A stretch of DNA of 64,000 nucleotides from Sphyrna mokarran. Its lineage: Eukaryota. Position numbers: made by a program. The DNA lies in contig JAGIQG010000026.1 of NCBI GenBank assembly GCA_024679065.1, forward strand, positions 21,700,001 through 21,764,000, read 5' to 3'. Below, in pieces: positions 3,001 through 57,000 of the stretch. Position 1 is the first letter of the stretch. Each line of letters begins with the position of its first letter.

Positions 3001-6000
3001 CTGTTCTTCTCTCCTTCCCCATATCAGATGCAGTAGTTTCTCTGCATCTCCATACACAGGAGCTGTCCTCTTCTCTCTGCAAAGTACTATGTGTAAAGTT
3101 GTTGCCCTCTTCAATGGGTTTCTGTTTTTGTTTTTCTGCCTATGGCTATTAGGTCACATGGCATGTCTCTGAGCTGAAATGTTTACACAGTAAGAAATCT
3201 CAATACCAGGTTAAAGTTCAAGTTTATTTGGTAGCAAACACCATTAGCTTTGAGTGCTGCTTCTTTGTCAGGAGGGGAAGGAGCAGTGCCCTGAAAGCTA
3301 GTGGCATTTGCTATCAAATAAACCTGTTGAACTTTAACCTGGTGTTGTGAGACTTATTGTTTACTCCAGTCCAATGCTGGCATCTCCACATCCTGAAATG
3401 TTTATGCAGAATTCTGTTTGCATTAAAGTTGCACCTAATAAATAACTGTATTGCAAAGTTCAGCATTCATGCCACACATTATAGTTGAATATTATTTATC
3501 AATATTTTTCAGGTATCTGTGAGTCTTATCAAATGGAAATTTTTCAAATTGTAGCTTCTGTTCTTCACCTGGGAAATATAACCTTTCAATCAAATGACCG
3601 TGATGGTGAAAATAGCTTTGTTAATGTAAGTTCACTTTTCAACCTTAGTTTTACCACAGTTAAATCACATTTCAATATTCATCTTTAAATGCTCTCTTTT
3701 GCTAAAATTGAAGTTGGCCTATGCAAACGTTGGATGCTGAAATTAGTTGATCCATTTGTTTGGCAAAGCTTTTCTATACACATCCCCCACCACCATTTTT
3801 GTATTTGCTTAAATTACAAGCAAGTGCACTTCAAAGTAATTGGATGTGATTTGGGATGCCATGAAGCTTGCTAAGGCACCTTCATAAATACAAATCATTT
3901 CTTTAAATTATTTCAAAATTAGAATGAACCCTCTGGTCTGAAATCTTTGCAAAGGGATTAAACCTATCCATTTGCTCACAAAATTATCTCTTGTTCTGAA
4001 CTATTCCACACTGCTCTGCAGATGGATCTGGAGTGTCATTTAACCTACAGCACCTAACTTTTAAATGGTGGCCCTTAGTTGTGGATGCACCTGAATTCCA
4101 CATCAACCTGGTCAACAGTATCAACATGACACGTATTGCTATTAGTTCATCTTCATTTCAGACCTTAAGATTATGCCATACATGTGCTCTAAAAAGTGTA
4201 AGAAGTCTGACAATGCCAGGTTTAAGTCCAGCTGACTTATTTGATAGTAAACGCATAAGCTTTTGAAGTTTGCCTCTTCGTCAGGTGAGGCAAACCTCGA
4301 AAGCTTGAGTTTACTATCAAATAAATCGGTTAGACTTAAACCTGGTGTTGTCAGACTTCTTATGTTTTCCCCAGTCCAACGCCAGCATCTCCACATCTCT
4401 AAAAACTGATCAGATTTGAGTCATTGGGAAGGCCAAATAATAGATGAGTTACAAAAATGCAGTGATATACGTAATCTATTGCTGCTCAGAATAGTGAAGG
4501 TTCTCTTTGTTGAACTTTCATAGTATCACTACACTGCAGGAGGAGGCCACTTGGTGCATCTAGTCTGCACTGGCTCTCCAACAGCACACCCTACCCAAAT
4601 CCTATCCTTGTAACCCCAAGTATTTATCCCACTAGTTCCCCCAAAACTTCACATCCTGGGATACCAAGTGGCAATTTAGCATGGCCAATCAATCTAATCT
4701 AGACATCTTTGGACTGTGGGAGGAAACCAATACGGAGGTGGGGTGAAATTGTACAAACTCCATACAAAGTCACCCAAAGCTGGAATTGAACCTGGGTGCC
4801 ACTGTGCCACCCATACTTGCGTTTCCTAAATTTAAAACAATGCTTTCTATTCTGAGAACAGACTAAGCACAGCTGTGCATGACTGTTGTCCAATTATTTA
4901 TTGCAATGAGTTGAAAGAAACTTTGGTTGTTCGGGCGGGGGGTAGTGGGTGGGAAAGCATTGGGAGTATGCTCTTGCCTTCAGACTTTTATTCTTTGTAA
5001 TTTATTAAAAAGAACAGTGACCTAAATTTGTTTGTTCTTTTGGCCTGCAGTCGCAAGATAAACATATCCATCTATTCTGCAAATTACTTGGATTGGAGAA
5101 AAAGCAGTTGGCACATTGGCTTTGTCACCACAAGCTAGTTACATTAAATGAAACCTACATCAAAGCAATGACAATAAAACAGGCCACCCGTTCCAGGGAT
5201 GCTCTTGCAAAACACATTTATGGGCAGCTGTTCATCTGGATAGTGAATCAAATCAATAAAGCGTTGAGATCCTCCTTGAAGCAGCATGCCTTTATTGGAG
5301 TGTTAGATATTTATGGGTAAGAATGACCAGCTTTATGCTTGATCAAATTTTTTTAAAAAATCCATCATATTTGCTAAATTTTTAATCTGTTTTAGGTTTG
5401 AAACTTTTGACAATAACAACAGTTTTGAACAGTTTTGCATTAATTATGCAAATGAAAAGCTACAGCAACAATTTAACTTGGTAAGTTCTCTACAAGGAAA
5501 ATATTCCAAAATGCCTTTTCAACAACCTCATTACCTGCCCTAGCTCCATTTTTATCTTGTGATTCTTTGTTTAAAAATCTGTTTAAAGGTTCAAAGAGCG
5601 TTTAAACAGCAGATGATCTTTAGTCATAAATGGTGCTTTGATATTTTTGCCATCCAAGGTGCTTCCTGAGATGTAGGTTTTGCTTAAACAGGAATTTGTT
5701 TATCAGAGTTGATGAATTTGAAAGTGCTCATTTGGCGCTTAATGCAGGTTTTGGGAATAATAGATGAAAACAGCTCTCAAAGCTGTGGTGCATGGTGCAA
5801 TAAACAATAATGTTCCTTAACACTCAAATAAATCAGAATCAAAGGTCTTTTTATCCAAAATAGGTTTAAGCTGTTCCAGCTAAACAGCCTGAGTTCGTGG
5901 GCACTCGACACAAAATGGGCAGTTTCTTTGAAGGTCATAGACTGTTTTTAATGAAAGCAATAGGGATTTCGCCTGTTGACTAAAACATTGTTGGGATTTC

Positions 6001-54000: not shown

Positions 54001-57000
54001 TTGGACCTGGAAGTGACTATCACTCAAGACTGTCATGGTCTTAGCAGTTTTGCTTGTATAAAGTTGGTCATTTTAAGAAAATAAAATTGTCATGCTTGTA
54101 CTTTGAGGTCATTGTTTTAAGGTTGAGCTTAGAATTTCTCCCATTTGGTTGGAAACCCAGGGTTCATGTGTATCAGTCTTCTACCAGAATTACAGTACTA
54201 ATCGGAGGAACTCCAGGCAAGTTTCCAATGTGATAGAATGGACAATTCCATTTCTGGAGCGTATCTCACTTTTACTACCTTTTCCTTCCCTGCACCCTGC
54301 CCCCCTTCCCCCTCCCCAATAAACACAAATTCAAACCTAAAAAGTGGTTAACCCCATCAGCGCAACTAGTTTGATATTCACCTAATTGTCTCCCCTGCTG
54401 CCATTTTGTGCAATAGTGAGAAAGCACTGCTCATAAATCCATGTTTCTCATTTCAAAGAACTGGCAGATTGAGACAAAAGTCCATGTCCGTAAGGTATGA
54501 ATCGCTCAACACATTTTAGTATGTAGATGTGTTAAGTGACTTGTATTAAATACCATAGGGTATTAGAAACTTGGAATTTAGAAGTAAATTTAAAACTGTA
54601 ATACTGTATTAAAGAACTGCAAGAGTGAGATTGGGATTCTGACTTTTATTTCAAATTTTGCGTACGCCTGAACTTAGCATTAGTCTCTGTGATTTATGAC
54701 TAAATATAGCCATTTACCTCTGCTTTCAAAAGTGCAAGCAGTCATTAACAATACAAGTATGCAAGATGGCCTCTCAATTTCAGGAACCCAGGTTCGATTC
54801 CTGACAAGGTCACTATCTATCTGTGCGGAGTTTGCACATTCTCTATCTGTGTGGGTTGCTTCTCACAGGCCAGAGATGCGCAGGTTAGGTTGCCCCTTGA
54901 TGTCAGGGGATTAGCTAGAGAAAATGCATGAAGTTAAGGATATAGTACCTGGGTGGGATTGTGGTCGGTGCAACTCAATGGGTCAAATAGTCTCTTTCCA
55001 CATTATAGGAATCTATGATTCTAAGTAAATGTTCAATTTAGTTAACTGGTTGCATATTTCATTTATTTACTTTGAGCACCAGGTTGAATTTCAATTGTAA
55101 GCTCACTTTTTGTTTGAGGACAACTATCATTAGAATTGTTGGGTCATTTGGGATCTTAGGTGGTTTTCCCTGCCTTTTACAAGTTGTTCAATGCTATGGT
55201 CTGAGCAGCATTGGCAATGGCAGAATCAGCAAAATTTTTTGCTGATGATGGTGGAACATTTTAAAATATCAAGAAACAATGGCTGTTTTGTAGGTGGAGA
55301 ATCCTTCAGGAAGAATGTGTGTTTTGGAATTATTCTTCTCATCACATTCTCATTGAAAATGGGAAGCTCTTACAAGTATCTAAAGAGGAAAATATGATTC
55401 ATATGGAGGAATGAGCAGAGAATCTGCCGTTGTCGGAGTAGTAATGATCTCCTTAGCAATCCTGCGTGTAACTCCTGACCTCGTGGCACAGATCCATTTT
55501 TGTTTGTAGCCTAACTAAGTGAGCTAATAACAAATTTCAACCAGACATTGGTGCTTGTGAAGATAAAGAATTGAGGATTGCATGTCAAGAGCATGGGCCT
55601 GAATCTGATCCACTACAAAGATCTTTTAAGAGTCTCTTGATTTGGACATCTTTTATAGAAAGGCCAATCAAATTTTGTTAACCTCAAATTAAAAGGTGTA
55701 AGAGCAGATACCAGTTTGCATTTGAAAAACTGACCTGAGTTATTCTAAGCTGCAGAAGTAGAACCAGGATACACTTTCAAGAAAGTACAAGGTAACTTTT
55801 TTAGCGTGAGATTTTTCATGATAGTTTGATCAATATATTGAGTGAACTGCCAGAGATAGCAGTGAAAGCAAAAAAACTTGGCATAATTGAAATCTTTTAC
55901 TGCAACAGCAGTGGGAGTTGAATGAATACAGGGAGAGGCATTAAGATCATTCTGGATGGATGAACCGATCTATTAAAGGCTTCCTTATCAGTATTTACTT
56001 GTAAAAGAGTAGATTGGGAACTGGATAAAAGTGATGTAGTTCAGGATGCAGTAGTGGATTTTGGTTTGTGGGGAGACTAGAATTTGCATTAACAATGGAG
56101 TGAGGAAATGGAGATATTGCTCTTTTTCTTTAAAAAAAAACAAAAAAATTTGGGTGGAGCAAGCCATAGAATCAGAAAATGGGATTCTAGCATTGGTCAT
56201 AGTTGGGGTGCTGTTTGAAGTTTCTATAATCTTGTTATAGAATGGATATTGGAACCAATTAAATAGCATTTTTATTTGTATATTATTTCTGATTAGAACT
56301 CTTAAGTGATTTTTGTCAGGTACACTCCTGTTGGTGTACTGAGTAAATTTTCAGGAACTGTTAAACATTTAGACTGGCAAGCATTTGAGTTAAATTAATT
56401 TGAGATTTTGATTTTTCTTGATTTTTGAGTTGCATTTTTCTTTAAGGTTACTCTACAGTTGTCATCAAACATTCACTCTACCTGGTACTTGGGCAGTTGA
56501 GTTCTTAAACTCTTGCTCTGTTATGCCTGTCACTTCTTACTTTTCCCTACCCCATCCTGAAGATTAAAGTTTACTTGCCTGGCCGCTACTCTTGTTTTCA
56601 CTATTTTGGAGACTTTTTTCTTCCTATACAGGCTTCTCATGGACCAGTTGGATGAACAGAAGGCACAGCACATGAAAGAAGTAAAGACTTTTCAAACTGA
56701 AGCCAGAGACTTGAAAGAGAAGTTGAATAAACAGCAGAAATACTTTGCTGAAGCACTACAGCTGTCATCAGAAGCACAAATGGAAGCTGGGTTAAAGCAG
56801 GAAATTACACGTCTTACCAATGAAAACCTGGTAACATTGCAATGGATTTTTGATCTGTCTTTCTATATTTTGGAGATCAATATCCTATTTCTGGACATCA
56901 GCCTTAACATTAATCATATCGTTTGTATATTACCCTTATTTTTATGGAATGTATGTAAAATTGACATGTTGACAGTGAGTGAAGAGGAGATATGGGAATT

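What the first reader, a model, noticed from the sequence alone, without database searches (positions are those of the whole stretch)
3513..56830. Intact but divergent myosin V that may be a separate vertebrate class V paralog rather than true MYO5B
Seen: all 20 exons splice in frame, with six correctly spaced IQs. Diagnostic motor segments are MYO5B-like ([15 protein letters not shown] in a 123-nt exon). Several exon lengths (109, 94, 149 nt) and the exon C sequence look more like MYO5A as I recall them, and the tail is much more diverged than expected for an ortholog. Inference: a fourth lineage of the Va/Vb type retained in cartilaginous fish.
Basis: partly seen in the sequence, partly recalled or inferred. 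Interest (0 to 1): 0.7.

Follow-up and report, generated by a model that had tools for sequence, protein, structure and literature searches.

The report
Intact Vb-type myosin V gene
The window holds twenty exons from the middle of an intact myosin V motor-protein gene, and the "extra" vertebrate myosin V lineage it might belong to was already described in 2019, so the finding is real but ordinary.

Summary
I rebuilt a 20-exon model on the + strand, 3513-56830. It totals 2906 nt (968.67 codons), has no in-frame stop, consistent phases, and 18 GT-AG plus 2 GC-AG introns.

Exons 1-10 match Pfam Myosin_head colinearly. Exons 11-13 carry six IQ cores spaced 23/25/23/25/23. In per-exon PDB searches, myosin Va scored best in 9 of 10 exons. 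Vc came second and other classes far behind in 4 of 4 motor exons. So this is class V, but not a Va or Vc orthologue: identity to Va is about 60%.

The tail is colinear with Va but weakly similar. It lacks about 87 residues of Va's medial tail, and I found no exon-D-like exon.

The "fourth lineage" is already published as myo5bb. It includes elephant shark, gar, coelacanth and birds, and is absent in mammals (PMC6372264).

I could not decide between myo5bb and true MYO5B (myo5ba). No Vb-type reference sequence was reachable, the window lies entirely inside the gene, and the joined-model tree was left out. I lean towards myo5bb at about 0.55.

The parts
3513..3625 (+). Exon 1 (113 nt; begins with 2 bases of a split codon). 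Motor domain.
   Evidence: Pfam Myosin_head profile 251-280, E 1.2e-05. AG acceptor, AAT|GTAAGT donor.
5051..5316 (+). Exon 2 (266 nt). Motor domain, ending in the first part of switch II (..LDIY + split G).
   Evidence: Pfam Myosin_head 285-372, 82.2 bits. PDB: Va 108.5 bits, Vc 98.2, best other class 51.3.
5396..5480 (+). Exon 3 (85 nt). Motor domain (FETF.., rest of switch II). Preceded by a 79-nt intron.
   Evidence: Pfam Myosin_head 374-399, 36.1 bits. The split codon reads G.
9736..9876 (+). Exon 4 (141 nt). Motor domain.
   Evidence: Pfam Myosin_head 401-449, 62.1 bits. PDB: Va 79.5 bits, Vc 74.3, best other class 45.4.
11470..11592 (+). Exon 5 (123 nt). Motor domain.
   Evidence: Pfam Myosin_head 452-491. 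PDB: Va 38.2 bits, Vc 34.4, best other 22.7.
13158..13241 (+). Exon 6 (84 nt). Motor domain.
   Evidence: Pfam Myosin_head 494-520, E 0.00095. Not searched against PDB.
19038..19172 (+). Exon 7 (135 nt, 45 aa). Loop 2 region. By coordinate arithmetic it is about 9 residues shorter than the Va equivalent. An alternative acceptor at 19044 is also in frame.
   Evidence: No Pfam hit, and it falls in the profile gap 521-561 between E6 and E8. Splice sites. Not searched against PDB.
20713..20810 (+). Exon 8 (98 nt). Motor domain.
   Evidence: Pfam Myosin_head 562-592, 33.1 bits. Found in the 20-aa ORF list.
22308..22394 (+). Exon 9 (87 nt). Motor domain (..[19 protein letters not shown]..).
   Evidence: Pfam Myosin_head 598-622. 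Split codons read L and R.
25445..25553 (+). Exon 10 (109 nt). Converter end of the motor. Weak donor AAG|GTTTAA.
   Evidence: Pfam Myosin_head 624-662, E 0.036. PDB: Va 38.0 bits (residues 702-736), Vc 27.9.
26890..27101 (+). Exon 11 (212 nt). End of the motor plus IQ1 and IQ2.
   Evidence: Pfam IQ, 2 stretches, 30.7 bits. IQ cores at residues 38 and 61.
27734..27890 (+). Exon 12 (157 nt). IQ3 and IQ4. GC donor AAG|GCAAGT.
   Evidence: Pfam IQ, 2 stretches, 39.2 bits. DNA read. Cores at cumulative residues 86 and 109.
28938..29177 (+). Exon 13 (240 nt). IQ5, IQ6 and the start of the coiled coil.
   Evidence: Pfam IQ, 2 stretches. PDB: chicken Va residues 861-940, 102.1 bits, covering the exon end to end.
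34219..34446 (+). Exon 14 (228 nt). Coiled coil.
   Evidence: PDB: Va 944-999, only 19.0 bits, E 0.013, but colinear. Heptad signal reached by 43 of 1000 shuffles.
36719..36812 (+). Exon 15 (94 nt). Coiled coil.
   Evidence: Open frame with good splice sites. Heptad signal reached by 47 of 1000 shuffles. Not searched against PDB. No Pfam family.
42219..42367 (+). Exon 16 (149 nt). Coiled coil.
   Evidence: PDB: Va 1060-1101, 25.8 bits, E 1.1e-4. Heptad signal reached by 0 of 1000 shuffles.
45999..46049 (+). Exon 17 (51 nt, 17 aa, rich in acidic and Ser/Thr residues). Candidate only. It is the sole exon found where Va has about 104 residues.
Evidence: Best of 19 phase-0/phase-0 candidates in 42368-46419. 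Sites ttattttaatag| and AAG|gtaata. Too short for Pfam or PDB.
46420..46656 (+). Exon 18 (237 nt). Tail. The acceptor position is forced by an in-frame TAG just upstream. GC donor AAG|GCAAGT.
   Evidence: PDB: Va 1209-1279, 35.1 bits, E 1.4e-7. DNA read.
47780..47877 (+). Exon 19 (98 nt). Tail. By position it corresponds to the Va exon A-C region just before residue 1321.
   Evidence: Good splice sites (tttgtttacag| and TAA|GTAAGT). No PDB hit at E<=10. No Pfam hit. Placement rests on position and frame only.
56632..56830 (+). Exon 20 (199 nt). Last coiled-coil exon before the globular tail (..QEITRLTNENL).
   Evidence: PDB: Va 1321-1386 end to end, 42.3 bits, E 5.3e-10.

Best explanation
The window carries the middle 20 exons of an intact, expressed-looking class V myosin heavy-chain gene. 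In Va numbering they cover roughly residues 314-1386: the second half of the motor, six IQ motifs and the coiled-coil stalk.

Shown:
- The motor half, the lever arm and the stalk are all encoded in an open frame.

Inferred from what is known of class V myosins:
- The protein dimerises through the stalk.
- It binds six calmodulin-type light chains on the lever.
- It walks along actin carrying Rab-marked vesicles, which are held by a globular tail encoded beyond the window.

It is neither the Va nor the Vc orthologue. By recalled comparison only, it is of the Vb type.

Non-mammalian jawed vertebrates have two Vb-type ohnologues: myo5ba (true MYO5B) and myo5bb, the hidden paralogue published in 2019. 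I think this gene is more likely myo5bb. Its medial tail is shortened by about 87 residues, and I found no exon-D-like (Rab10-binding) exon. Both suggest a remodelled cargo-adaptor region.
For: Gene integrity:
- 20 of 20 exons are open with consistent phases and AG acceptors. There are 18 GT and 2 GC donors.

Class V:
- 9 of 10 motor exons hit Myosin_head in order, profile 251 to 662.
- Six IQ cores are spaced 23/25/23/25/23.
- In 4 of 4 motor exons searched, Va scores above Vc, and Vc well above the other classes.
- The tail exons E13, E14, E16, E18 and E20 map colinearly to Va at 861-940, 944-999, 1060-1101, 1209-1279 and 1321-1386.

Not a Va orthologue:
- 49 of 83 (E2) and 48 of 80 (E13) residues are identical to Va. 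Chicken and mammalian Va differ at only 10 of 79 positions in the same stretch (my counts).

A second Vb-type lineage exists in a shark:
- PMC6372264.

Lean towards myo5bb:
- Only a 17-aa candidate exon stands where Va has residues 1104-1207.
- The recalled conserved medial-tail motif is absent from the window. Its single match, at 3805, lies outside any exon.
- No exon-D-like exon or motif occurs in 47878-56631.
- Exon D is reported in MYO5A and MYO5B, with a homologous unspliced region in MYO5C (passages of PMC10814003).
- Nuckels et al. describe myo5bb as long-branched with relaxed constraint in the tail.
Against: No Vb-type sequence, ba or bb, was compared in any call.
- From memory, some exons (E5, E16) look closer to Vb, while E13 looks closer to Va.

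Distances cannot settle the question.
- The shark-tetrapod split is almost as old as the 2R duplications. Orthologue and ohnologue distances are therefore expected to be similar, and the roughly 60-75% identities do not discriminate.

The tail evidence has limits.
- Missing tail exons could be small or diverged beyond my motif and splice-site scans.
- Whether myo5bb genes lack these segments is not stated in the sections I read.
- E17 and E19 have no homology support (E17 is too short to search).

Coverage and taxon.
- The N-terminal half of the motor and the globular tail lie outside the window, so intactness of the whole gene is not shown.
- The taxon was not tested.
Confidence: 0.55

Rival explanations
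1. It is the true MYO5B orthologue (myo5ba) of this species. It is diverged simply because the lineage is old, and the odd tail features are lineage-specific or due to exons I missed.
For: The class V and gene-integrity evidence is the same as for the main reading. Elephant shark also has a myo5ba that branches in the expected place (PMC6372264, section 18 passage). With two Vb-type genes per genome the prior is about even. Expected orthologue and ohnologue distances are similar at this depth (inference).
Against: About 87 residues of the medial tail are missing, and no exon-D-like exon was found. These segments are shared by the mammalian paralogues (exon D; medial-tail motif: recalled). A conservative orthologue would be expected to keep them.
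Confidence: 0.33
2. It is a further, undescribed class V lineage, for example the 2R product that Nuckels et al. consider lost, retained only in cartilaginous fishes.
For: From memory only, Va-like and Vb-like exons are mixed. The tail architecture is unusual. PMC6372264 section 17 says four genes are expected from R1/R2 and suspects one loss.
Against: Nothing requires a fifth lineage. Two known Vb-type lineages already explain a divergent Vb-like gene. No tree or synteny was available.
Confidence: 0.05
3. It is the MYO5A or MYO5C orthologue.
For: Va is the best PDB hit in 9 of 10 exons searched. However, PDB holds no Vb chain for this part, so Va wins by default.
Against: Identity to Va is only about 59-60% in E2 and E13, where bird and mammal Va are 87% identical. 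Vc scores lower than Va in 4 of 4 motor exons. The tail exons score only 19-42 bits against full-length Va.
Confidence: 0.03
4. It is a decaying pseudogene or an unexpressed copy.
For: The tail is weakly conserved. Two donors are weak (E9 and E10). E17 and E19 lack homology support.
Against: There is no stop or frame break in 2906 nt across 20 exons spread over 53 kb. Splice sites are canonical. Switch II, the IQ spacing and the terminal stalk motif are kept.
Confidence: 0.04

Closest known systems
myo5bb clade (Nuckels, Nice & Garcia 2019, Genome Biol Evol, PMC6372264)
   Same: A Vb-type class V myosin distinct from mammalian MYO5B. It is reported in elephant shark, coelacanth, gar, teleosts, turtle and birds, and described as long-branched with a conserved motor and a more variable tail. 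That is the pattern seen here: motor and lever exons score about 1.2-1.7 bits per residue against Va, and tail exons about 0.25-0.64.
   Different: Membership was not tested, because no myo5bb sequence was available. The paper's only sequence marker, the teleost P-loop GESGSGKT, lies outside the window. The sections I read say nothing about the medial tail or exon D.
MYO5B / myo5ba (true myosin Vb)
   Same: Same domain plan. From memory, the E5 and E16 exons resemble human MYO5B more than Va.
   Different: No exon-D-like exon was found, although MYO5B has a 26-aa alternative exon D that binds Rab10. The medial tail is shorter. Orthology is untested.
Myosin Va (chicken 2dfs, 1oe9, 1w8j; full-length 7yv9)
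   Same: Best PDB match for 9 of 10 exons searched. E13 (861-940) and E20 (1321-1386) align end to end with stretches of Va. There are six IQs and a colinear stalk.
   Different: Only about 60% identical in E2 and E13. Stalk exons score 19-42 bits. Va residues 1104-1207 have only a 17-aa counterpart. By coordinate arithmetic, loop 2 is about 9 residues shorter.
Myosin Vc (human 4zg4, 5hmp)
   Same: Second-best match in 4 of 4 motor exons (98.2, 74.3, 34.4 and 27.9 bits).
   Different: It always scores below Va. PDB holds no Vc lever or tail to compare.

Membership tests
Class V myosin | Myosin motor domain | tested here: met
   9 of 10 exons E1-E10 match Pfam Myosin_head colinearly, profile 251-662 of 679. 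Taken singly, 3 of the 10 (E2, E3, E4) exceed the 33.3-bit cut-off. The first ~250 profile positions lie outside the window.
Class V myosin | Closer to class V motors than to other myosin classes | tested here: met
   4 of 4 motor exons searched. Va/Vc score 108.5/98.2, 79.5/74.3, 38.2/34.4 and 38.0/27.9 bits, against a best other class of 51.3, 45.4, 22.7 and none.
Class V myosin | Lever arm of six IQ motifs with alternating 23/25 spacing | tested here: met
   Pfam IQ gives two stretches in each of E11, E12 and E13. Core spacing is 23/25/23/25/23.
Class V myosin | Coiled-coil stalk after the IQs | tested here: met
   Colinear matches to the Va stalk. In the heptad test, 63, 43, 47 and 0 of 1000 shuffles reach the observed value for the end of E13, E14, E15 and E16. 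The test is not significant for E17-E20.
Class V myosin | C-terminal globular tail (DIL domain) | not testable with these tools
   No further myosin exon was seen in 56831-64000. The domain must be encoded beyond the window.
MYO5B orthologues (myo5ba) | Groups with tetrapod MYO5B and teleost myo5ba in a tree | not testable with these tools
   No Vb chain was listed in any of the 10 PDB searches. The joined-model step was left out.
MYO5B orthologues (myo5ba) | Synteny with mbd1 and mapk4 (PMC6372264) | not testable with these tools
   The window is entirely inside the gene.
MYO5B orthologues (myo5ba) | Alternative 26-aa exon D (Rab10 binding) between exons C and E | tested here: inconclusive
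   No candidate exon and no recalled exon-D motif in 47878-56631. A diverged small exon could escape this scan, and E19 itself might be C- or D-like.
myo5bb clade | Groups with chicken 'MYO5B', gar and teleost myo5bb in a tree | not testable with these tools
   No reference sequences were available. Supplementary table S1 of PMC6372264, which lists the gene identifiers, is closed.
myo5bb clade | Synteny with mbd3 and onecut3 (PMC6372264) | not testable with these tools
   The window is intragenic.
MYO5A orthologues | Orthologue-level identity to Va | tested here: not met
   49 of 83 (E2) and 48 of 80 (E13) residues are identical to Va. Chicken and mammalian Va share 69 of 79 in the E13 stretch (my counts). 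This is a proxy, not a tree.

The most novel reading that the evidence does not exclude
The gene belongs to neither myo5ba nor myo5bb. It would be a fifth jawed-vertebrate class V lineage, the 2R ohnologue presumed lost, surviving only in cartilaginous fishes. Its stalk would have shed the Rab10-binding exon D and most of the medial tail, and so would carry a different set of cargo adaptors.
Probability: 0.05. Interest if true: 0.45.

Novelty: already known. Interest (0 to 1): 0.15.

Why it matters
The practical value is correct naming. Nuckels et al. point out that several genes labelled 'myo5b' outside mammals, chicken's among them, are in fact myo5bb. Function inferred from human MYO5B (Rab11 and Rab10 recycling, microvillus inclusion disease) should therefore not be transferred blindly.

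If this gene is a cartilaginous-fish myo5bb, its shortened medial tail and the apparent lack of exon D would be a first concrete structural difference for that lineage. That would be a modest, testable point about how ohnologues split cargo-binding roles. It does not open a new question.

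Tried and rejected
- Finding a Vb reference in PDB.
- Fetching the Va and Vc PDB sequences for my own alignments. get_proteins does not accept those handles, so I relied on the printed alignments only.
- ESM Atlas with E2. It returned only 'myosin head, Chordata' and no paralogue information. The second call was not used.
- Rfam on the whole window, looking for a paralogue-specific intronic RNA: 0 hits.
- Further exons in 1-3512 and 56831-64000: none seen.
- More medial-tail exons in 42368-46419. A strict scan gave 0 candidates. A relaxed scan gave 19, of which only 45999-46049 looks coding. 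An ORF containing 'HVPK' at 43031-43156 has no usable splice sites.
- Exon D in 47878-56631: 20 splice-compatible candidates, none coding-like, and no motif match.
- E19 against PDB: no hit at E<=10.
- Pfam on the tail exons: only weak coiled-coil noise.
- Roland et al. 2009 (PMC2613619): not held.
- Searches for 'myo5d / myosin Vd' found 5 papers, judged unrelated from the listing alone. 'Hidden paralogy' with MYO5B returned only PMC6372264.
- Pseudogene and Va/Vc-orthologue readings: rejected for the reasons given under rival explanations.

Full report
**The window.** It is 64 kb with no N and about 38% G+C. I do not take it for human. Its best matches to mammalian myosin Va are only about 60% identical at the protein level. 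The introns carry decayed reverse-transcriptase fragments.

**Exon model.**
- Stop-to-stop frames show a series of + strand segments with obvious myosin sequence.
- Splice-site inspection gave 19 exons. A relaxed scan of the interval 42368-46419 added a twentieth, 45999-46049. It is 51 nt, with sites ttattttaatag| and AAG|gtaata.
- One search checks the whole model by arithmetic. There are 20 exons from 3513 to 56830, totalling 2906 nt (968.67 codons). No exon has an in-frame stop, all phases are compatible, and the six split codons read G, L, R, H, D and K.
- All acceptors are AG. Eighteen donors are GT. Two are GC with the same strong context AAG|GCAAGT, after exons 12 and 18.
- No exon overlaps DNA repeated elsewhere in the window.
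- No further myosin exon is visible in 1-3512 or 56831-64000. Both ends of the gene therefore lie outside the window.

**How the searches were run.**

**Class assignment.**
- Nine of the ten exons E1-E10 match Pfam Myosin_head in strict order, at profile positions 251-280, 285-372, 374-399, 401-449, 452-491, 494-520, 562-592, 598-622 and 624-662. The silent exon, E7, falls exactly in the gap where loop 2 lies.
- Taken singly, only E2, E3 and E4 exceed the family's 33.3-bit cut-off.
- E11, E12 and E13 each give two IQ stretches. The six cores are spaced 23/25/23/25/23 residues, which is the class V pattern as I know it.
- In all four motor exons searched, Va scored best and Vc second. The scores were 108.5/98.2, 79.5/74.3, 38.2/34.4 and 38.0/27.9 bits. 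The best other class was far behind, at 51.3, 45.4, 22.7 and none.
- Switch II (DIYGFE) is intact across the E2/E3 junction.

**The stalk.**
- E13 aligns end to end with chicken Va residues 861-940 (102.1 bits).
- Similarity then drops. E14 matches Va 944-999 at 19.0 bits (E 0.013). E16 matches 1060-1101 at 25.8 bits. E18 matches 1209-1279 at 35.1 bits. E20 matches 1321-1386 at 42.3 bits.
- E19 has no hit at E<=10. E15 and E17 were not searched, and E17 is below the length minimum.
- The order is fully colinear, so these are real stalk exons.
- Heptad periodicity is detectable from the end of E13 through E16, but not in E17-E20.
- Against the full-length Va chain the model has one gap. Va residues 1104-1207 correspond only to the 17-residue E17.
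- The 4-kb interval holds no other plausible exon. A short medial-tail motif that I recall as conserved in Va and Vb is absent. Its only match in the window, at 3805, lies outside any exon.
- The 8.7-kb intron between E19 and E20 holds no exon-D-like exon or motif.
- Exon D is a 26-residue alternative exon that binds Rab10 in MYO5A and MYO5B, with a homologous constitutive region in MYO5C (passages of PMC10814003 and PMC3814135).

**Which paralogue: what the calls show.**
- It is not the Va orthologue. 49 of 83 residues in E2 and 48 of 80 in E13 are identical to Va. Chicken and mammalian Va share 69 of 79 residues in the same E13 stretch (my counts on the alignments printed).
- Vc is always further away than Va.
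- PDB lists no myosin Vb chain for any exon searched.
- As I recall human MYO5B, E5 and E16 are clearly closer to it than to Va, E2 is slightly closer, and E13 is closer to Va. This is a lead, not a test.

**Which paralogue: what is known.**
- Nuckels, Nice and Garcia (PMC6372264) described a 'previously unidentified myo5 clade', myo5bb. I read the abstract, sections 13, 14 and 17, and further passages.
- They found it in teleosts, spotted gar, coelacanth, elephant shark, turtle, chicken, duck and turkey, and reported it absent from mammals, anole and Xenopus.
- They call it a case of hidden paralogy. Chicken 'myo5b' is a myo5bb.
- They link myo5bb to mbd3 and onecut3, and myo5ba to mbd1 and mapk4.
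- They report long branches and a less constrained cargo-binding end.
- A 2013 meeting abstract already uses the name (PMC3621135, whole text).
Searches for other names of such a lineage found nothing relevant.
- Supplementary table S1 of that paper, with the shark gene identifiers, could not be seen.

**Which of the two Vb-type genes is this?** I cannot tell with certainty. The shark-tetrapod split is nearly as old as the duplications, so identities alone do not discriminate (inference). The shortened medial tail and the missing exon D are losses of segments shared by the mammalian paralogues. They fit a lineage with a relaxed or remodelled tail better than a conservative orthologue. On that basis I put myo5bb at about 0.55, true MYO5B at about 0.33, and the remainder on a further lineage, Va/Vc, or a pseudogene.

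**Mechanism.** The window shows half of an actin-activated ATPase motor with intact switch II, a six-IQ lever and a heptad-bearing stalk. From established knowledge of class V myosins, I infer a two-headed, calmodulin-decorated, processive vesicle transporter. Cargo choice is set by the stalk's alternative-exon region and by the globular tail, which was not seen. The altered stalk predicts different adaptor binding, for example no Rab10 site. That prediction is inference only.

**Verdict.** Interest is low.

Noticed in passing
window 22113-22267: A perfect tandem repeat of a 20-bp unit, 7.8 copies at 100% match. It lies in intron 8 and ends 40 bp upstream of the exon 9 acceptor. It is the only segment of the window with three or more self-matches.
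   Followed up: partly
window 27891-27896 and 46657-46662: Two GC-AG introns in one gene, with the identical donor context AAG|GCAAGT, after exons 12 and 18.
   Followed up: partly
window 5317-5395: A 79-nt intron between exons 2 and 3. The other 18 introns measure 370-8754 nt.
   Followed up: no
window 39604-39795 (-), 51881-52291 (-), 58415-58738 (+): Intronic ORF fragments matching Pfam RVT_1 (E 1.2e-06, 2.4e-07 and 1.9e-05), so these are decayed retrotransposon copies. Seven other repeat-like or long ORFs in the same call had no Pfam family.
   Followed up: partly
window 15985-16629 (-): The longest open frame in the window (214 aa), lying in intron 6. It has no Pfam family. It sits in a stretch with strong G-over-C skew, 0.247 for 16001-20000. 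It is probably a chance frame.
   Followed up: partly
window 36001-44000 and 56001-60000: Blocks of marked GC skew: -0.173 and -0.099 in the first region, +0.270 in the second. They may reflect the orientation of inserted repeats. This is not explained.
   Followed up: no
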